DNA of 64,000 bases from a virus. Of the stretch, positions 56,747 through 64,000 are shown in pieces; the stretch's first letter is position 1, and the number at the start of each line of letters is the position of its first letter. Location of the stretch: the IMG/VR virus record IMGVR_UViG_3300012005_000004, positions 1 to 64,000 of that record, one strand, 5' to 3'. The translations under genes were made by a program, and so were the position numbers. The notes below the pieces were generated by a model. That model saw only the letters and a list, made by a program, of their open reading frames with translations. It made no database searches and was not told the origin of the DNA.

Positions 56747-58867
56747 ATGCAACGGATTTATAAGGATAATGCCGTGTTGCGAGGCATTATCGAAAACACC
56801 ATGGATGCGATCATCGTCATTAACGATGATAATAAAGTAGTAGAATGGAACAAGTATGCCACTGATTTATTTGGATATACCCAAGATGAAGCTATCGGTA
56901 GATCATTATCTTCTCTGATTATACCAGATACGTTCATTCCTCACCATGAGGCATGCGTTAATCGAGCTGTCCAAAATCAAAAAGATCATTGTTATCTTAG
57001 AACTGAGATGGATGCACGCAGAAAAGATGGTTGTAAGCTCAAAATTGAGCTTACAGTTTCTCAGATAACTCTAAAAGATCAAAGCGGAATAAAGAATAGT
57101 TTGTTTAGCGTAGCAATACGTGATATCACAGTTCAAAAGAATAGTCAAGACCGTGTGATTCGCCAAGCTTCTCTTTTAGATCTTTCGCGTGATGGTATCT
57201 ATGTTATTGATAAAGATCAGAGGTTGACTTGGTGGAATAAGGGGGCTGAGCTGCTCTACGGATATTCCACTGATGAAGCTATCGGTCATATAGCTTATGA
57301 ATTGTTACAAACAGATTACCCACTAAGTGGTAGGAATGCCTTTGAAGAGATCTTTCAAACACTTCTACATTCTGGTTCTTGGGAAGGGGAGTTGACGCAA
57401 CTCACAAAAGACGGTAATCGCGTTACAGTTCTCAGCCGTTGGGTACTTGATATCGAATATGATGAAGTGTTAATAACTAATACCAATATCACAGAGCTAA
57501 AACGAAATCAAGAAAAAATCGAATATCTCGCTACGCATGATGATCTCACTGGTTTGCCAAACCGTCGGTTGCTAGAAGATAGAATAAACCATGCGATAAT
57601 CCAATGTGAACGAAATGGTGGTCACGTTGGTGTTCTATTCTTAGACCTTGATCGTTTCAAGATCATAAATGATTCGCTTGGTCATGACATGGGAGATAAA
57701 CTACTCAATGAGGTTAGTCAAAGATTAGTCAAATCAGTGAGACGTGAAGATACCGTAGCTCGTCTAGGTGGAGATGAATTTGTAGTAGTTCTTGAGAATG
57801 TATCAAATATTGAAGATATAGCTGAGATCTCTTCCAAGATACTGAATTCTATTCAACAACCTATTTCATTGGGAGAAGGTGCTGGGAAGAGCATCTCAAT
57901 CAACACTAGCATTGGTGGTTCCGTCTACCCAAAAGATGGCCTAGACGTTATCACATTGATGAGGAACGCTGATTTAGCTATGTATAAGTCTAAAGAATAT
58001 GAAATGGGGGCATTTCGTTTCTACAGCCCAGAGATGAATGAGTTAGTTCTTCAACGACTGACAAATGAAAATAATTTAAGAAAAGCATTGAATAATGAAG
58101 AATTCATTCTCCATTTTCAACCGAAGATCTGTAGCGCAGAAGGGCGTACCACCGGTGTTGAAGCATTGATTCGATGGAACCACCCAGAAAAGGGTTTAAT
58201 CATGCCATCTGAATTTATTGGATTAGCTGAAGAGATCGGGTTAATCAATAAAATTGGTGAGTGGGCTCTATACGCAGCGTGCGAGCAAAATAAAGCATGG
58301 CAAAATATGGGATTGCCTCTCATACAGATGTCAGTAAACTTGTCAGTGCACCAGCTCACGCCAAATTTAGTTAACATCGTATCAAAAGCGTTGAAAATGT
58401 CTGGCTTAGATCCAAAGTGGTTAGACCTAGAAGTTACCGAATCTGCTGCGATGAAAGATGTAGACATGACGATTGAAACCTTAGGTAAACTTCGAAAGCT
58501 TGGTGTGTCAATCTCTATCGATGATTTTGGAACTGGATATTCATCTCTAGAATATCTTAAAAAGATGCCGTTAGATAACTTGAAGATTGATCAATCATTT
58601 GTTAGTGGCATTCCAACAGATTCTAATGACCTTTGTATCGTGGCTGCAATCATTGGTCTGGCTCATAACATGAAGCTACGAGTGATCGCTGAAGGAGTGA
58701 CATCTAAAGAACAAGTTGCGTTCTTAGACACACACAAATGTGATGAGATGCAGGGTTACCTATTCAGCCGTCCAGTGACAGCTGAGGACGTAGAGCAAAG
58801 GTTGATCGGTCAAGTTTGGAGCTACCCATACCAAGGAAATCATGAACTACGAACGTGCGATGATTGA
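56747..58867 (+). CDS. PAS-PAS-GGDEF-EAL diguanylate cyclase / phosphodiesterase
   Basis: Two PAS domains; D.LTGLPNR, DLDRFK.IND..GH..GD, RxxD I-site, GGDEF; EALIRW, DDFGTGYSS, KID, AEGV, QGYLFSRP. Confidence 0.95.
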   Translation: MQRIYKDNAVLRGIIENTMDAIIVINDDNKVVEWNKYATDLFGYTQDEAIGRSLSSLIIPDTFIPHHEACVNRAVQNQKDHCYLRTEMDARRKDGCKLKIELTVSQITLKDQSGIKNSLFSVAIRDITVQKNSQDRVIRQASLLDLSRDGIYVIDKDQRLTWWNKGAELLYGYSTDEAIGHIAYELLQTDYPLSGRNAFEEIFQTLLHSGSWEGELTQLTKDGNRVTVLSRWVLDIEYDEVLITNTNITELKRNQEKIEYLATHDDLTGLPNRRLLEDRINHAIIQCERNGGHVGVLFLDLDRFKIINDSLGHDMGDKLLNEVSQRLVKSVRREDTVARLGGDEFVVVLENVSNIEDIAEISSKILNSIQQPISLGEGAGKSISINTSIGGSVYPKDGLDVITLMRNADLAMYKSKEYEMGAFRFYSPEMNELVLQRLTNENNLRKALNNEEFILHFQPKICSAEGRTTGVEALIRWNHPEKGLIMPSEFIGLAEEIGLINKIGEWALYAACEQNKAWQNMGLPLIQMSVNLSVHQLTPNLVNIVSKALKMSGLDPKWLDLEVTESAAMKDVDMTIETLGKLRKLGVSISIDDFGTGYSSLEYLKKMPLDNLKIDQSFVSGIPTDSNDLCIVAAIIGLAHNMKLRVIAEGVTSKEQVAFLDTHKCDEMQGYLFSRPVTAEDVEQRLIGQVWSYPYQGNHELRTCDD

Positions 58868-60964: not shown

Positions 60965-60994
60965 ATTTACAAACTCAAAAAGTTAGTTTATAAT
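60965..60994 (+). promoter_or_regulatory. Early-type promoter for the Ro60 gene
   Basis: ATTTAC-N18-TATAAT. Confidence 0.7.
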
Positions 60995-61080: not shown

Positions 61081-62517
61081 ATGAAGACCAACGCAAAGGC
61101 AGTAAACAACCGTCGCACCGAAGGTGGTGCACGTGCATCGGCGATCACGCCGGAACAAGAGCTGCGCCGTCAAGTAATGGCACTGATGCTGTGGGAAAAT
61201 GGCGGACAGACAGAAAAGAATGTCGCATCGCTGATCCCGAAGTGTCGGCCAGAGTTCGTGGCCGCGTGCGCGTTCGAAGCTCGCACGAAGATGAAGCTGC
61301 GCCACGTTCCGCTGTTCATCGCGCGCGAGATGGCTCGGCACCCAGAGCACAAGTCCCTGGTGGGTAAGTTGCTGCCTGACCTGATCAACCGTGCCGATGA
61401 GATCAATGAGTTCATGGCGATCTACTGGAAGAACGGTAAGACCCCGATCTCGGCGCAAGTCAAGAAGGGTTTGGCCGCAGCTTTCAAGAAGTTCGGTCCG
61501 TATGCGCTGGCGAAGTACAATAAGACCGACATGGCCATCAAGATGCGTGATGTGATGTTCTTGACTCACGCTAAGCCTGCCGATGCTCCTGGTGACAAGT
61601 ACACCAAGGAAGTTCGTAAGGCTGAACGTGCTGGACAAAAGGCTCGTCAGCTGACCAAGGGCGAAAAGCTGTTCTCGGACTTGATCAATGACAAGCTGGA
61701 AACTCCTGACACATGGGAAACCAACCTGTCGGCTGGTGCAGACAAGAAGGAAACGTTTGAACGATTGATGTCTGAAAACAAGCTGGGTGCATTGGCATTC
61801 ATTCGTAACCTGCGGAACATGGTTCAGGCTGGTGTGAGCCGGCAGGCTATGAAGGAGTACGGAGCCAAGGTAAACTTGGAATACGTGCTGCCGTTCCGGT
61901 TCTTGTCAGCAGCTCGTCAAGTTCCAGGAATGGAAGACCTGTTGGAGCCGATGATGTTGCGTTGCCTGGAAGGTCAACCGAAGCTGCCGGGTAAGACCGT
62001 GCTGATTCTCGACACTTCTGGTTCGATGCACGCCGGAATCTCGGGCAAGTCTGACCTGACTCGTTTGGACACGGCCGCAGCGCTGGCGATCTTGGTTCGT
62101 GAAATTTGCGAAGATGTCGTCATCTACTGTACCGCAGGTTCGGATGGAGCACGTCGTCACGCTACCATGCAGATCCCAGCACGTCGTGGATTTGCGCTGG
62201 CGGATTACATCCGTAGCAATGAAGTTCAAGGCAAGATCGGTGGTGGCGGTATCTTCTTGAAGCAGTGCCTGGACTTCGTGGAAATGAACGAAAAGACGGC
62301 AGACCGCGTGATCACGTTGACCGACGAGATCGACTGCGATGACAAGGCGTCTCCGGAGGGAGCTTCGACTTTCGGTGAGAACAACTACATCATCAACGTC
62401 GCTACGCAGGCTAACGGTATCGCGTACTCGAAGTTCACGCACATCAACGGTTGGAGCGAAGCTGTAATCGACTTCATCCGCGTGCTTGAAGAAGACCAAG
62501 CGGCTGAATTGCAGTAA
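61081..62517 (+). CDS. rsr: Ro60/Rsr TROVE-domain RNA-binding protein with vWA domain
   Basis: T.EGG.A, R...KLRHVP, RADE, F..Y.LAKY, PDTWET.LS, AFIRNLRN, LPFRF, DTSGSM, GWSE. Confidence 0.93.
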   Translation: MKTNAKAVNNRRTEGGARASAITPEQELRRQVMALMLWENGGQTEKNVASLIPKCRPEFVAACAFEARTKMKLRHVPLFIAREMARHPEHKSLVGKLLPDLINRADEINEFMAIYWKNGKTPISAQVKKGLAAAFKKFGPYALAKYNKTDMAIKMRDVMFLTHAKPADAPGDKYTKEVRKAERAGQKARQLTKGEKLFSDLINDKLETPDTWETNLSAGADKKETFERLMSENKLGALAFIRNLRNMVQAGVSRQAMKEYGAKVNLEYVLPFRFLSAARQVPGMEDLLEPMMLRCLEGQPKLPGKTVLILDTSGSMHAGISGKSDLTRLDTAAALAILVREICEDVVIYCTAGSDGARRHATMQIPARRGFALADYIRSNEVQGKIGGGGIFLKQCLDFVEMNEKTADRVITLTDEIDCDDKASPEGASTFGENNYIINVATQANGIAYSKFTHINGWSEAVIDFIRVLEEDQAAELQ

Positions 62518-62601
62518 TGTTTTACGCATGGCACATGCGTACAAGTCCCCTGGATAAGAGATGGAATGTGCTAACAGAGGTCGGTTTACCATTCACCTCT
62601 T

Positions 62602-62735
62602 GGATGTGTAGCTCAGGTTGGTAGAGCGTCTAGTAGGAAAGCCCGGACGTTGATCCCATGTGGAAGCGCATGGAGTAGTCGCGGTGTAGCAAGTACAAAT
62701 GAAGGTCGCAGGTTCGACGCCTGCCACATCCGCCA
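62602..62735 (+). ncRNA. tRNA-scaffold RNA with Y-RNA-like stem replacing the anticodon arm (134 nt)
   Basis: Acceptor GGATGTG/CACATCC+G+CCA, D arm GCTC/GAGC, T arm GCAGG-TTCGACG-CCTGC; 74-nt folded insert at 62629-62702. Confidence 0.8.
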
Positions 62736-62737
62736 AA

Positions 62738-62977
62738 ATGAAACGAATTAGCACTTTATTGTTGAATCGAGTAATTGATAGCGTTCACCATCGAGCTTTT
62801 CGAGGGTATCCTACCTATTATGAAGAAATAAAGATCTTAGAGCTCCTAAAGGATGCACGTGAACTTATGAACAAGCATGATAAAGATAGAAGTAAAGTTG
62901 ATTTAATCGCTCACGTTGTTCTAATCGGTGTTCTAGCTTTATCCGGTGTTATTGTAACCTACTCACTATTTCGCTAA
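62738..62977 (+). CDS. Hypothetical membrane protein
   Basis: C-terminal TM; start moved to 62738 because 62699 lies inside the RNA. Confidence 0.55.
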   Translation: MKRISTLLLNRVIDSVHHRAFRGYPTYYEEIKILELLKDARELMNKHDKDRSKVDLIAHVVLIGVLALSGVIVTYSLFR

Positions 62978-63213
62978 TGATGACCGATAAAGATATTCAA
63001 TTCTTGAAAGAGCAGGTAAAGAATGGTGAGAACGTGTGTTATATCGATGATGACGGTAAGCGTCTTTTAGTATCCTCTGTGAATCTAAACTGGGTAGAAT
63101 TCCCAGATGAACCAGATCTAAAAGAACCAGCCGCCATGCTAGTTGGTAGCGTTCCTGTAGCTTTATTGAACGTTGAGCTGAGTTCTTTCATGAAATTGGT
63201 ACCTCTAAAATAA
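62977..63213 (+). CDS. Hypothetical protein
   Basis: TAATG overlap. Confidence 0.6.
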   Translation: MMTDKDIQFLKEQVKNGENVCYIDDDGKRLLVSSVNLNWVEFPDEPDLKEPAAMLVGSVPVALLNVELSSFMKLVPLK

Positions 63214-63225
63214 TTTCATAAAGTA

Positions 63226-63255
63226 GTTTACTTTTCTAGAAAGACAAGATATAAT
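63226..63255 (+). promoter_or_regulatory. Early-type promoter for an RNA-only unit
   Basis: GTTTAC-N18-TATAAT. Confidence 0.75.
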
Positions 63256-63269
63256 ACTTCCATAGCATA

Positions 63270-63344
63270 AATTCTTAAGTAAGAGCGATCTTAGTAGAGA
63301 TACACTGTTAACATTAGCAGTACTAAGGCTCTTACTTAAGAATT
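63270..63344 (+). repeat. Long leader hairpin
   Basis: Perfect 17-bp AATTCTTAAGTAAGAGC/GCTCTTACTTAAGAATT plus inner CTTAGTA/TACTAAG and CTGTTAA/TTAGCAG. Confidence 0.8.
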
Positions 63345-63409
63345 CAGGTGGCGTAGATAACGGTTACTTCACTTCCAAAGAAACCAACCGTTCTCGCTTA
63401 GTTCCCCTG
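63345..63409 (+). ncRNA. Minimal Y-RNA-like RNA lacking tRNA module
   Basis: CAGG/CCTG end stem, TGGCGTAG...TTAGTTCC internal region, AACGGTT/AACCGTT stem, pyrimidine-rich loop; near Ro60 gene. Confidence 0.6.
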
Positions 63410-63415
63410 TAATAT

Positions 63416-63495
63416 GGTTCCGTAGCTCAATGTTAGAGCGCCTGGTCCCTTTGCGGACAGGAGATAGTGGAGTTCAAATCTCTCTCGGATCCACC
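63416..63495 (+). tRNA. Atypical tRNA-like element (anticodon undefined)
   Basis: GGTTCCG/CGGATCC acceptor (one mismatch), GCTC/GAGC D stem, 21-nt anticodon arm, TTCAAAT T loop, ends ACCT. Confidence 0.55.
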
Positions 63496-63690: not shown

Positions 63691-63791
63691 GGAGATAGAA
63701 AATGGATTGTGATCATGGATATCTTCTGGGCAATGGTTTGGGTGTTGTGGATAGCGATGATAGCTTCGCTGATCAGCACTGATTAAAATAT

Positions 63792-63874
63792 CTTCGACTG
63801 GCTAATACAAACTGGCACAGTTAGCGTCCTCAAAAGTCGCGCCTCTATCGGTTCGAATCCGATGTCGAAGACCA
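63792..63874 (+). tRNA. tRNA-Leu(CAA), atypical
   Basis: CTTCGAC/GTCGAAG+A+CCA; GCGTC-CTCAAAA-GTCGC; ATCGG-TTCGAAT-CCGAT; enlarged D region, short variable loop. Confidence 0.75.
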
Positions 63875-63885
63875 AAGTAGTATAT

Positions 63886-63976
63886 GGATCTCGCAAGTAA
63901 GGATGGGTGGTCCCGTCAGCCGGCTGTAACCCGGTTCCTATTAGGCAAGGCGTTCAACTCGACCCGAGATCCACCA
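63886..63976 (+). tRNA. tRNA-Tyr(GTA), atypical Sec-like fold
   Basis: 8-bp GGATCTCG/CGAGATCC+A+CCA; 6-bp D stem with TGGT loop; GCCGG-CTGTAAC-CCGGT. Confidence 0.75.
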
Positions 63977-64000
63977 AAATGTATCAGTAGACCCTTAAGG

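What the first reader, a model, noticed from the sequence alone, without database searches (positions are those of the whole stretch)
62602..62735. tRNA-Y RNA chimera: apparent circular permutation of YrlA that retains a real acceptor stem and CCA
Seen: 84 nt after the Ro60 stop codon lies an RNA with textbook tRNA parts: a 7-bp GGATGTG/CACATCC acceptor stem, G discriminator, encoded CCA, and canonical D and T arms. The 17-nt anticodon arm is replaced by 74 nt folding into a long interrupted stem: CCG-GAC...GTTGATCCC-ATGTG-gaag-CGCAT-GGAGTAG-TC-G-CGG. Its GGAGTAG / GTTGATCCC region mirrors GGCGTAG / TTAGTTCC in the Y-like RNA at 63345, but with strand order reversed and the end capped by a loop. 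Established: bacterial YrlA RNAs lie next to rsr and consist of an Rsr-binding stem carrying the 5' and 3' ends plus a tRNA-like module with a closed acceptor stem. Inference: this is the opposite permutation, a CCA-bearing (RNase P-processable, possibly aminoacylatable) tRNA body with a Ro-binding handle. It could tether Ro60 to tRNA-processing or repair enzymes or act as a decoy for anti-phage tRNases.
Basis: partly seen in the sequence, partly recalled or inferred. Interest (0 to 1): 0.92.

Follow-up and report, generated by a model that had tools for sequence, protein, structure and literature searches.

The report
tRNA-shaped RNA beside phage Ro60
Just after the Ro60 gene of a giant soil phage lies a gene for a small RNA with a complete tRNA upper body and CCA tail but, in place of the anticodon arm, a long irregular hairpin; it is probably a partner RNA (Y RNA) of Ro60 wired in tRNA order, but binding is untested and the match to known Y RNAs is only partial.

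Summary
At 62602-62735 there is a 7-bp acceptor stem, G73, an encoded CCA, and canonical D and T arms. Rfam's tRNA model scores it 38.6 bits (cut-off 29). A 74-nt hairpin arm stands where the anticodon arm should be, and no anticodon loop or intron solution exists.

The RNA lies 84 nt after a full-length phage Ro60 gene. My scan found no promoter or terminator between them.

Two homologues in unrelated genomes keep the fold through compensatory changes in the acceptor, T and arm helices.

- The wiring is that of a circularly permuted YrlA.
- I found many other phage tRNA bodies with an extra arm. One arm type aligns end to end with YrlA halves and travels with TROVE genes. Another (ACAGCAA) travels with DUF2828.
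- This window's arm matches neither type by profile. Rfam YrlA gives 20.7 bits (cut-off 69).
- A better conserved Y-like motif, GCGGUGUAG, sits at the arm's base.

Conserved aminoacylation looks unlikely. I put Ro60 binding at about 0.5. Earlier notes of this scan report the same class on other DNA. I found no paper describing it.

The parts
60966..60994 (+). Promoter-like site (TTTACA-17-TATAAT) upstream of Ro60. It is the probable start of the transcript that also carries the tRNA-shaped RNA.
   Evidence: 11 of 12 consensus matches. The next promoter-like site on this strand is at 63227-63255. No terminator-like site lies on the + strand between 61081 and 63227.
61081..62517 (+). Phage Ro60 (TROVE plus vWA) gene, 478 aa.
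   Evidence: Pfam TROVE, E 5e-12. Full-length match to Thermus phage phiLo Ro60 (PDB 9KOP and 9L5Y), residues 13-471, E 6.5e-22. 113 relatives were found in viral and metagenome contigs.
62523..62541 (+). Trailer hairpin 1 (UACGCAUG-GCA-CAUGCGUA) after the Ro60 stop codon, with no U tract.
   Evidence: Read from the sequence. The terminator scan does not call it.
62576..62600 (+). Leader hairpin (AGAGGU...ACCUCU) that ends 1 nt before the acceptor stem.
   Evidence: Read from the sequence. L236 also has a hairpin a few nt upstream of its element.
62602..62735 (+). The tRNA-shaped RNA gene: acceptor 62602-08 / 62725-31, D arm 62611-27, arm 62629-62702, variable loop 62703-07, T arm 62708-24, G73 62732, CCA 62733-35.
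   Evidence: Rfam tRNA 38.6 bits. Homologues are L245:1673-1808(-) and L236:4930-5051(+), with compensatory changes.
62633..62696 (+). Conserved base of the arm. P1 is GUA (62633-35) paired with UAC (62694-96). Internal loop 1 is GGAAA (62636-40) opposite AGCAAG (62688-93). P2 is 62641-48 paired with 62678-87, with bulged G 62681 and U 62685.
   Evidence: Sequence is conserved in all three homologues (alignments A1 and A3). P2 has two compensatory pairs between the window and L245. P1 is 7 bp in L245. The same fold is predicted for all three arms.
62681..62689 (+). GCGGUGUAG, a Y-RNA 5'-strand-like motif (phage form of GNCGAAN0-1G) at the base of the arm. It has the polarity expected of a permuted YrlA.
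   Evidence: It is one mismatch from GUGGUGUAG, which occurs in 12 distinct Y RNAs beside phage TROVE genes. L245 has GCCGUGUAG and L236 has GCGGUG-AG.
62649..62678 (+). Distal part of the arm. Internal loop 2 is GUUGAUC (62649-55) opposite AGUA (62674-77). P3 is 62656-62 paired with 62667-73, with loop GAAG at 62663-66.
   Evidence: L245 keeps a similar loop (GCUUGAAC opposite AUGUA) between different helices. L236 lacks it.
62738..63213 (+). Two small ORFs (62738-62977 and 62977-63213) that start 3 nt after the CCA. Function unknown. Probably on the same transcript.
   Evidence: One search lists the ORFs. The listed start is 62699; the ATG at 62738 is my reading. No Pfam match.
63345..63409 (+). 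The phage's canonical Y-RNA hairpin: CAGG-U-GG-CGUAGAU...UUACUUC...CGCUUAGUU-CCCCUG.
   Evidence: Best match in the contig to the HMM of the YrlA 5' half (E 5e-08). The motifs fit the consensus of 113 TROVE loci.
63416..63492 (+). tRNA-like element directly after the Y hairpin. It has one acceptor mismatch, a 7-bp anticodon-type stem, C33 and no CCA.
   Evidence: Rfam tRNA 28.4 bits, just under the cut-off of 29. ARAGORN finds it only in permissive mode.

Best explanation
The stretch encodes a stable, tRNA-shaped non-coding RNA that has lost decoding. It serves as a partner RNA of the phage's own Ro60, that is, a Y RNA wired in tRNA order.

Inferred steps, none shown at the bench:
1. It is transcribed with Ro60 from the promoter at about 60966-60994.
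2. RNase P, from the host or from the phage's own RNase P RNA about 3.5 kb downstream, cuts at G62602.
3. 3' trimming stops at the encoded CCA.
4. The closed tRNA elbow protects the RNA from exonucleases.
5. The long arm offers an irregular helix as the Ro60 docking site. The conserved bulges and loops at its base, with the GG-UGUAG motif, are the most likely site. The Y-like distal loop specific to this phage is a second candidate.
6. The exposed tRNA body, with a free acceptor end, is then available to tether Ro60 to an enzyme that recognises tRNA shape or single-stranded RNA. Known Y RNAs tether PNPase in this way.

Shown here by computation: the tRNA body, the absence of an anticodon, conservation with covariation in three genomes, the linkage to Ro60, and the existence of a TROVE-associated class of such chimeras.
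For: The tRNA body
- Rfam tRNA scores 38.6 bits, and all tertiary-core nucleotides are present.
- No canonical anticodon stem-loop is found under any split. 20 of 57 other chimeras do have one.

Conservation
- L245 has a 7-bp acceptor stem in which six of the seven pairs differ from the window's and all seven are Watson-Crick.
- L236 changes two T-stem pairs on both sides.
- P2 has two compensatory pairs, and the bulged G is kept in all three homologues.

Linkage to Ro60
- The RNA starts 84 nt after a full-length Ro60 gene. No promoter or terminator lies between them.
- Y RNAs flank the TROVE gene in most of the 113 related loci.

The wider class
- In Y-like ('B-type') chimeras, the 3' half aligns end to end with the 5' half of standard YrlA. 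L024 scores 42 bits over HMM positions 7-62, and L125, L120, L160, L185, L030 and L229 behave the same way.
- The contigs of B-type chimeras carry TROVE in 5 of 8 cases, and in 3 of 3 near-complete ones. They carry DUF2828 in 0 of 3.
- ACAGCAA-type chimeras show the reverse pattern: TROVE in 0 of 7 and DUF2828 in 4 of 5.

This window's own type
- TROVE is present in 2 of 3 carriers: the window itself and the L245 bin, where B-type chimeras occur on both the TROVE contig and L245's contig. DUF2828 is present in 0 of 3.

Motifs
- There are two Y 5'-strand-like words and one 3'-strand-like word in the 74 nt, in permuted order.
- In Salmonella and M. smegmatis YrlA only the 5'-strand motif is recognisable too (PMC4201824).
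Against: - No profile detects the arm as a Y stem. Rfam YrlA gives 20.7 bits against a cut-off of 69. The half-HMMs match only the D and T arms.
- The arm lacks the UUACUUC motif that follows the Ro-binding motif in nearly all phage Y RNAs of this set.
- The strand opposite GG-UGUAG (GGAAAG) is unlike the Y 3' motif UUGUUCCC.
- The distal Y-like pair deviates at otherwise invariant positions and is missing in L236.
- L236's contig (53% complete) shows no TROVE.
- The Ro60 gene sits at the head of a tRNA island, so adjacency could be incidental.
- There is no RNA-seq evidence and no binding data.
Confidence: 0.5

Rival explanations
1. It is a tRNA-shaped RNA whose arm is a handle for a partner other than Ro60, either another RNA-binding protein or an RNA. 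It lies next to Ro60 only because Ro60 sits at the start of the phage's tRNA and small-RNA island.
For: - The conserved base of the arm (A-rich strand, helix, then AGCAAG) recalls the 'helix + ACAGCAA' arms that travel with DUF2828 and not with TROVE.
- Homologue L236 lies in a contig without TROVE.
- Profile tests do not see a Y stem.
Against: - The covariance model of the ACAGCAA arm does not hit this arm or L236's.
- DUF2828 is absent from all three carriers, though two are incomplete.
- TROVE is present in two of the three carriers.
- The RNA appears to be co-transcribed with Ro60.
Confidence: 0.27
2. It is mainly a processing signal. A tRNA-like RNase P site cuts the Ro60 message away from the two small downstream ORFs (tRNA punctuation), and the released RNA has no function of its own.
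For: - The element lies between Ro60 and ORFs that start 3 nt after the CCA.
- Hairpins lie upstream, and it has no promoter of its own.
- The phage encodes an RNase P RNA.
Against: - A processing site needs only the acceptor and T arms. Here the base of the arm is conserved in sequence, and its helices covary across three otherwise unrelated genomes with different neighbouring genes.
- This role can also coexist with the best explanation.
Confidence: 0.1
3. It is a decaying tRNA gene, or a decayed tRNA-plus-arm chimera, that no longer does anything.
For: - There is no anticodon loop.
- L236 looks eroded, with two acceptor mismatches, no CCA and the distal loop deleted.
- The single-sequence fold is no better than shuffles.
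Against: - The acceptor stems of the window and L245 are perfect 7-bp helices with different sequences.
- CCA is kept in both, and the D and T loops are identical.
- Compensatory changes are seen in P2 and in the T stem. Decay would not preserve pairing.
Confidence: 0.08
4. It is a tRNA gene with an intron that is spliced out to give a normal tRNA.
For: ARAGORN in intron mode can force a tRNA-Ser(GGA) with a 35-nt intron. Some other phage tRNA bodies in my set do look intron-bearing (Tyr-like CUGUAG loops in L152, L209 and L233).
Against: - The forced model has mismatched stems and an invented long variable arm.
- No split of the 74 nt leaves a 5-bp stem with a 7-nt loop that has U33.
- At 74 nt the insert is far below the size of bacterial group I introns, which to my knowledge run to 200 nt or more.
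- No exon junction is conserved in the homologues.
Confidence: 0.02

Closest known systems
YrlA (Y RNA-like A; Rfam RF02553) of bacteria and actinophages (Chen et al. 2014, PMC4201824; Wang et al. 2018, bioRxiv 10.1101/312249)
   Same: It is encoded next to Ro60 on the same strand. It has a tRNA-like domain with canonical D and T arms and elbow nucleotides. An irregular stem emerges where the anticodon stem would be. A GNCGAAG-type word lies on the strand that leads into the T-arm side.
   Different: - The strand order is the circular permutation. Here the RNA ends are at a 7-bp acceptor stem with encoded CCA, and the stem is closed by a loop. YrlA has its ends in the Ro-binding stem, a closed acceptor loop, and 'lacks a free CCA end'.
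- Rfam scores 20.7 bits against a cut-off of 69.
- The stem itself is not detectably homologous.
- The UUACUUC motif of phage Y RNAs is missing.
M. smegmatis YrlA after processing (Chen et al. 2014)
   Same: The end product has an open 7-bp acceptor stem with CCA, made by RNase P cleavage, plus a Ro60-binding stem.
   Different: The mycobacterial RNA then consists of two pieces (82 and 65 nt) with CA added after transcription. Here the same shape would be one chain with CCA encoded in the gene.
Phage tRNA bodies carrying a Y-like side arm ('B-type' here: L024, L120, L125, L160, L185). I found them in no paper; they appear in earlier notes of this scan.
   Same: They have a tRNA body with an open acceptor end. 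The extra arm is in permuted Y order. They sit in tRNA arrays of large phages that encode TROVE. One lies right beside the L245 homologue.
   Different: In those, the arm is a side branch in the 5' strand of the anticodon stem, mostly after nt 28. It ends in GUUACUUC, and many keep a working-looking anticodon loop. Here both strands of the anticodon stem are replaced, there is no anticodon, and the arm sequence is of another type.
Thermus phage phiLo Ro60 with Yrl1 and Yrl2 (PMC12135203; PDB 9KOP, 9L5Y)
   Same: The protein partner is the closest solved relative of this phage's Ro60 (E 6.5e-22, full length). In phiLo, phage-encoded Y-like RNAs next to the gene bind it and recruit host PNPase.
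   Different: As the paper describes them, phiLo's Yrls are stem-bulge-stem RNAs upstream of the gene with a CGAA motif. No tRNA body is mentioned.
tmRNA, including the permuted two-piece form that this phage also encodes
   Same: It has a tRNA-like acceptor and T domain with CCA, the lower half is replaced by other RNA, and gene permutation is a known evolutionary route.
   Different: tmRNA has G3:U70 alanine identity, an mRNA-like tag frame and an SmpB partner. This RNA has A3-U70, a full D arm and no coding part.

Membership tests
YrlA (Rfam RF02553) | Encoded adjacent to a Ro60/Rsr (TROVE) gene. | tested here: met
   It lies 84 nt downstream on the same strand. No promoter or terminator lies between them.
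YrlA (Rfam RF02553) | A tRNA-like domain with D and T arms and tRNA tertiary-interaction nucleotides. | tested here: met
   Rfam tRNA scores 38.6 bits. U8, A14, G15-C48, G18G19, G53-C61, U54U55C56 and A58 are all present.
YrlA (Rfam RF02553) | The 5' and 3' ends pair to form the Ro60-binding stem, and the acceptor-like stem is closed by a loop. | tested here: not met
   The order is the opposite permutation. The ends are at the acceptor stem with CCA, and the arm is closed by the GAAG loop.
YrlA (Rfam RF02553) | A conserved GNCGAAN0-1G motif on the strand that leads from the Ro stem towards the T arm. | tested here: inconclusive
   GCGGUGUAG (62681-89) and AUGGAGUAG (62670-78) are each one mismatch from variants seen in natural phage Y RNAs. 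The HMM of the YrlA 5' half does not extend over them.
YrlA (Rfam RF02553) | A score at or above the family's gathering cut-off (69 bits). | tested here: not met
   It scores 20.7 bits at 62559-62659 with many non-canonical pairs. A permuted copy could not be given to the tool.
YrlA (Rfam RF02553) | Binds Ro60. | not testable with these tools
   This needs a gel-shift assay or immunoprecipitation.
Canonical tRNA | An anticodon stem-loop (5 bp, 7-nt loop, U33) that allows decoding. | tested here: not met
   No split or intron solution exists in the window, L245 or L236.
Canonical tRNA | An acceptor stem, discriminator and CCA, with D and T arms. | tested here: met
   CCA is also encoded in L245 but not in L236.
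Phage 'helix + ACAGCAA' arm RNAs (associated with DUF2828) | A 6-7-bp hairpin followed by the invariant word ACAGCAA. | tested here: not met
   Covariance model R1, built from 17 arms, gives no hit at E up to 10 on the window, L003 or L236. Only the word AGCAA and an A-rich opposite strand are shared.
Phage 'helix + ACAGCAA' arm RNAs (associated with DUF2828) | A DUF2828 (PF11443) gene in the same genome. | tested here: inconclusive
   DUF2828 is absent from the 80-kb contig, the L236 contig and the L245 bin. The records are 22% and 53% complete, and the bin is of unknown completeness.
Phage tRNA/Y chimeras with a Y-like side arm (B-type) | The 3' half is collinear with the 5' half of standard YrlA (Ro motif, UUACUUC, T arm). 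| tested here: not met
   B-type members align over HMM positions 6-65 at 25-42 bits. This element aligns only over positions 41-64, at 11.9 bits.

The most novel reading that the evidence does not exclude
The RNA is a true single-chain Ro60 partner in tRNA order. Its free, RNase P-made and CCA-ended acceptor arm is used to bring Ro60 to machines that grip tRNA ends, such as the CCA-adding enzyme, EF-Tu or the ribosome, RNA ligases, or toxins that attack tRNA 3' ends. Its hybrid handle (UGUAG + AGCAA) would then be an evolutionary link between the TROVE-type and the DUF2828-type (ACAGCAA) handles, so that two Ro-like particle families of phages share one origin in a tRNA gene.
Probability: 0.12. 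Interest if true: 0.85.

Novelty: new variant of a known kind. Interest (0 to 1): 0.62.

Why it matters
Y RNAs are the obligatory partners of Ro60, from bacteria to humans. Bacterial YrlA is already read as a circularly permuted tRNA that 'lacks a free CCA end'.

A tRNA-order form, with an open acceptor stem, an encoded CCA and the docking stem closed by a loop, would matter in three ways.
- It would show that the tRNA module can be wired either way.
- It would give a natural one-piece version of the processed mycobacterial YrlA.
- It would support the idea that Y RNAs arose from tRNA genes.

It also yields small, well-defined constructs for asking what the tRNA half of a Y RNA is for.

More broadly, my survey shows that large phages carry many tRNA bodies with extra arms. 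The arm type splits cleanly by which Ro-like protein the phage encodes, TROVE or DUF2828. That split is comparative evidence that the arms are protein handles.

This particular element is a divergent, anticodon-less member. It is a weaker exemplar than the B-type chimeras, but it is the one placed directly behind a Ro60 gene.

Tried and rejected
- Intron reading. ARAGORN's intron mode gives only a forced, mismatched tRNA-Ser. A systematic search for split stems finds no anticodon arm.
- Rfam. Nothing in the window reaches a gathering threshold. YrlA scores 20.7 bits on an unpermuted, poorly paired alignment.
I used HMMs of the two halves of 15 standard phage YrlAs as a proxy.
- ACAGCAA arm model. 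Covariance model R1 gives no hit on this arm.
- nhmmer of the 134 nt against the 33 viral TROVE loci then held: no homologue.
- blastn against GenBank phages: nothing over the element.
- Pattern scans. The conserved arm words found only L236 in IMG/VR and L245 in the genome collection. The other matches were chance matches or ordinary tRNAs.
- Metagenome scan with Ro60: no relative above 56% identity, so no close sister phage.
- Sequencing runs: no RNA holder is listed. The only four holders are soil DNA runs from one study, two of which may be the source sample.
- Fold stability of the single sequence is not better than shuffles, so it was not used as evidence.
- Known loop motifs. I looked by eye for K-turn and loop E readings of internal loop 1 and found no consistent fit.
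Full report
**Where the window lies.** The window is the first 64 kb of an 80,369-bp IMG/VR virus record. CheckV estimates the record at 22% complete, which implies a phage of several hundred kb. Public runs place it in soil. Downstream of the finding lie tRNA genes (Trp, Ser, three Leu, a second Trp), a sub-threshold RNase P RNA (72.9 bits, cut-off 100) and a permuted tmRNA.

**Check of the observation.**
- The ORF at 61081-62517 is a real Ro60. Pfam TROVE gives E 5e-12. It also matches the solved Ro60 of Thermus phage phiLo over its full length, residues 13-471, E 6.5e-22.
- Its stop codon ends at 62517 and the RNA begins at 62602, a gap of 84 nt.
- The 7-bp acceptor stem (GGAUGUG paired with CACAUCC), G73, CCA, the D arm, the AGGUC variable loop and the T arm are all there, and so is every nucleotide of the tRNA tertiary core.
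- Rfam's tRNA model scores 38.6 bits (cut-off 29) with a 70-nt insertion where the anticodon arm should be. Default ARAGORN does not call it.
- The 74 nt at 62629-62702 fold into a short P1, an internal loop (GGAAA opposite AGCAAG), P2 with a bulged G, a second internal loop (GUUGAUC opposite AGUA) and P3 capped by GAAG.
- As a single sequence the fold is not unusually stable (z -1.6, -0.8 for the arm). Energy alone proves nothing.

**It is neither a tRNA nor an intron-bearing tRNA.** ARAGORN's intron mode yields only a forced tRNA-Ser with mismatched stems. I searched for every way of splitting a 5-bp anticodon stem around an insert, requiring U33, a purine at position 37 and a 4-5-nt variable loop. 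That search finds nothing here. It does find a canonical anticodon arm in 20 of 57 other insert-bearing phage tRNA bodies.

**What Y RNAs look like beside phage Ro60 genes.** I collected 113 relatives of the protein with flanking DNA.
- Their flanks carry Y RNAs with a very regular signature. The 5' strand reads GUGG(C/U)G(U/A)AG, then about four nt, CGG and UUACUUC. The 3' strand reads CGNUUGUUCCC.
- The common layout is Ro motif, UUACUUC, T arm, closed acceptor hairpin, D arm, 3' motif. That is standard YrlA. It is usually just upstream of the gene and sometimes downstream.
- The window's own hairpin at 63345-63409 fits this signature. It is the best match in the contig to an HMM of the YrlA 5' half (E 5e-08).
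YrlA has its ends in the Ro-binding stem, has a closed acceptor loop and 'lacks a free CCA end'. M. smegmatis YrlA is cut by RNase P and receives CCA (PMC4201824; bioRxiv 10.1101/312249).

- After dropping duplicate copies, 54 of them have a paired acceptor stem; with the three already held (the window's own element, L024 and L030) they make the 57 studied here.
- In the 16 loci scanned, they sit in phage tRNA arrays and score 43-54 bits with the tRNA model.
- The set is mixed, but two arm types recur.
- 'B-type' arms have a capped helix and a Ro-motif-like word and end in GUUACUUC. 'A-type' arms have an A-rich strand and a 6-7-bp hairpin with clear covariation (6 of 7 pairs), followed by the invariant word ACAGCAA.
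- In both types the arm is usually a side branch inserted after nt 28 of an otherwise intact anticodon stem. Examples are Asn GUU, Lys UUU, Cys GCA and Thr UGU.

**B-type chimeras are permuted YrlAs.** I built HMMs of the two halves of 15 standard phage YrlAs. The 5'-half HMM aligns end to end with the 3' half of B-type chimeras. L024 scores 42 bits over HMM positions 7-62, and L125, L120, L160, L185, L030 and L229 behave likewise.

**Arm type tracks the Ro-like protein the phage encodes.**
- B-type contigs carry Pfam TROVE in 5 of 8 cases, and in 3 of 3 near-complete ones. They carry DUF2828 in 0 of 3.
- A-type contigs carry TROVE in 0 of 7 and DUF2828 in 4 of 5. All 3 complete ones have it, though one match is below the Pfam cut-off.
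- The numbers are small but the split is clean. It argues that the arms are protein handles.
- The DUF2828 lead came from earlier notes of this scan. I tested it on my own loci.

**Where this window's element stands.** It is neither type by profile.
- The YrlA half-HMMs match only its T arm (11.9 bits) and its D arm (16.8 bits).
- The A-type covariance model does not hit it.
- Rfam YrlA gives 20.7 bits on a badly paired, unpermuted alignment.
These proxies are negative for the stem.

**Homologues.** Pattern scans with the element's own conserved words found two.
- L236 comes from a 185-kb viral contig that shares no protein-level similarity with this one.
- L245 comes from a bacterial-MAG bin, on a contig with 34% GC.

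**What the three-way comparison shows.**
- The D loop, the T loop, the strand AGUA-GAAAG-CC(C/G)GG and the strand UCGC(G/C)GUG(U)AGCAAGUA are nearly identical in all three.
- Helices change by compensation. L245's 7-bp acceptor differs from the window's at six of seven pairs and stays fully Watson-Crick. L236 changes two T-stem pairs on both sides. P2 has two compensatory pairs between the window and L245. The bulged G is kept in all three.
- L245 folds by free energy alone into a clean cloverleaf with a 7-bp P1.
- L245 encodes U73-CCA.
- L236 has two acceptor mismatches, no CCA, and no second internal loop.

I conclude that this is a genuine, selected RNA fold and not a decayed tRNA.

The pair GUUGAUCCC and GGAGUAG lies in the distal, variable part of the arm.
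- It is absent from L236.
- In L245 it is reduced to UUGA opposite GUA, between different helices.
- In the window itself the pair is unlikely to be chance. Both words are within one mismatch of natural variants, for example AUGGCGUAG, which occurs in 9 distinct Y RNAs. About 6e-4 such reversed pairs are expected per 74 nt, judged from 2.2 Mb of phage DNA. The estimate is post hoc.
- A second Y-like word, GCGGUGUAG (62681-89), sits in the conserved base of the arm. It directly follows P2 and leads towards the T arm, which is the polarity a permuted YrlA requires. L245 has GCCGUGUAG and L236 has GCGGUG-AG.
- In Salmonella and mycobacterial YrlA only this strand's motif is recognisable (PMC4201824). 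The lack of a matching opposite strand is therefore not disqualifying.
- The arm lacks UUACUUC.

**Linkage to Ro60.**
- The only promoter-like sites on the + strand are at 60966-94, before Ro60, and at 63227-55, before the Y hairpin.
- No terminator-like site lies between Ro60 and 63227.
- The RNA is therefore probably co-transcribed with Ro60 and released by RNase P and 3' trimming.
- Of the three carriers of this arm type, the window has TROVE adjacent.
- The L245 bin has TROVE on another contig. That contig, like L245's own, carries B-type chimeras with UUACUUCG, so both contigs plausibly belong to one large phage.
- L236's half-complete contig shows neither TROVE nor DUF2828.
- The one carrier without a visible Ro60 is also the one with the eroded acceptor stem and the deleted loop. 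This is a correlation across only three cases.

**Function.** My best reading, at confidence 0.5, is a Y RNA in tRNA order.
- The arm docks Ro60.
- The tRNA body, with a free acceptor end, stabilises the RNA and serves as the effector-binding module, as in known Ro60/Y RNA/PNPase particles (PMC4201824, PMC12135203).
- Conserved aminoacylation is unlikely. The acceptor sequence and the discriminator vary freely among homologues. G3:U70 is absent (the pair here is A3-U70), there is no long variable arm and no anticodon. I draw this from the known tRNA identity rules.
- A decoy for anticodon nucleases is not plausible without an anticodon loop. A decoy for enzymes that attack tRNA 3' ends is not excluded.
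- The main rival, at 0.27, is a handle RNA for some other partner, placed next to Ro60 only because Ro60 heads the small-RNA island.

**Novelty.**
- My full-text searches found no description of a tRNA-order Y RNA or of tRNA/Y chimeras.
- The closest statement in print is that YrlAs 'resemble circularly permuted tRNAs' and may derive from dimeric pre-tRNAs (10.1101/312249).
- Earlier notes of this scan report the same class on other phage genomes, so within the scan this is a repeat discovery.
- Here it is a divergent, anticodon-less member in the most telling position, directly behind Ro60.
- I class it as a new variant of a known kind.

Noticed in passing
window 63345-63492: A canonical Y-RNA hairpin (63345-63409) is followed after 6 nt by a tRNA-like element (63416-63492; Rfam tRNA 28.4 bits, one acceptor mismatch, 7-bp anticodon-type stem, C33, no CCA). 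Cleavage by RNase P at the tRNA-like 5' end would define the 3' end of the Y RNA. In L014, L102 and L107, Y hairpins likewise sit between tRNA genes.
   Followed up: partly
window 63270-63344: A long near-perfect hairpin (AAAUUCUUAAGUAAGAGC...GCUCUUACUUAAGAAUU) lies right after the promoter-like site at 63227-55 and directly before the Y hairpin. The genome search picked it up as an inverted self-match (78% over 75 nt).
   Followed up: no
window 63790-63990: There are two more tRNA-like elements with CCA that ARAGORN does not call by default. One has acceptor UCUUCGAC / GUCGAAGA-CCA, with the T arm at about 63848-63864. The other has GGAUCUCG / CGAGAUCC-A-CCA at about 63888-63988, with a weak tRNA-Sec-model hit of 18.3 bits.
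   Followed up: no
L003 4108-4500 and 12408-12702 (contig 66107-66499 and 74407-74701): The phage encodes an RNase P RNA-like gene (class A model, 72.9 bits, below the cut-off of 100) and a permuted tmRNA (123 bits; tag ANEAFFGKFALVA). So the phage itself carries a second permuted tRNA-derived RNA and possibly the enzyme that matures the chimera.
   Followed up: partly
L029 2655-2800: This is a standard-order phage YrlA with a 7-bp acceptor stem whose loop begins with ACCA (CUACUCC-ACCA-CUAUAUG-GGGGGUAG). It looks pre-set for RNase P cleavage and a CCA end, as shown for M. smegmatis YrlA. It is a plausible intermediate between the two wirings.
   Followed up: no
L120, L125, L137, L140, L141, L147, L160, L178, L180, L185, L227, L232 and others: Many phage tRNA genes keep an intact anticodon loop (Asn, Lys, Cys, Thr, Arg, Ile, Ser) and carry a 42-65-nt side arm, mostly after nt 28 of the anticodon stem. 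The arm type (ending in UUACUUC, or ACAGCAA) splits by whether the contig encodes TROVE or DUF2828.
   Followed up: partly
L245:1673-1808(-) and L236:4930-5051: In both homologues the tip of the arm is a 5-bp stem with a 7-nt loop (AUAACGA and AUAAACA). That is the size and U33 pattern of an anticodon arm set on a long stalk. The window has a 7-bp stem with a GAAG loop instead.
   Followed up: no
L152, L209, L233, L129: Some insert-bearing tRNA bodies have a normal anticodon stem with a CUGUAG or UUGUAG loop start (Tyr GUA), followed by a 40-60-nt insert 3' of the anticodon. This looks like a different, intron-like class.
   Followed up: no
window 56747-58867: A complete PAS-PAS-GGDEF-EAL gene lies in the phage contig (EAL E 3e-70, GGDEF E 5e-46).
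   Followed up: no
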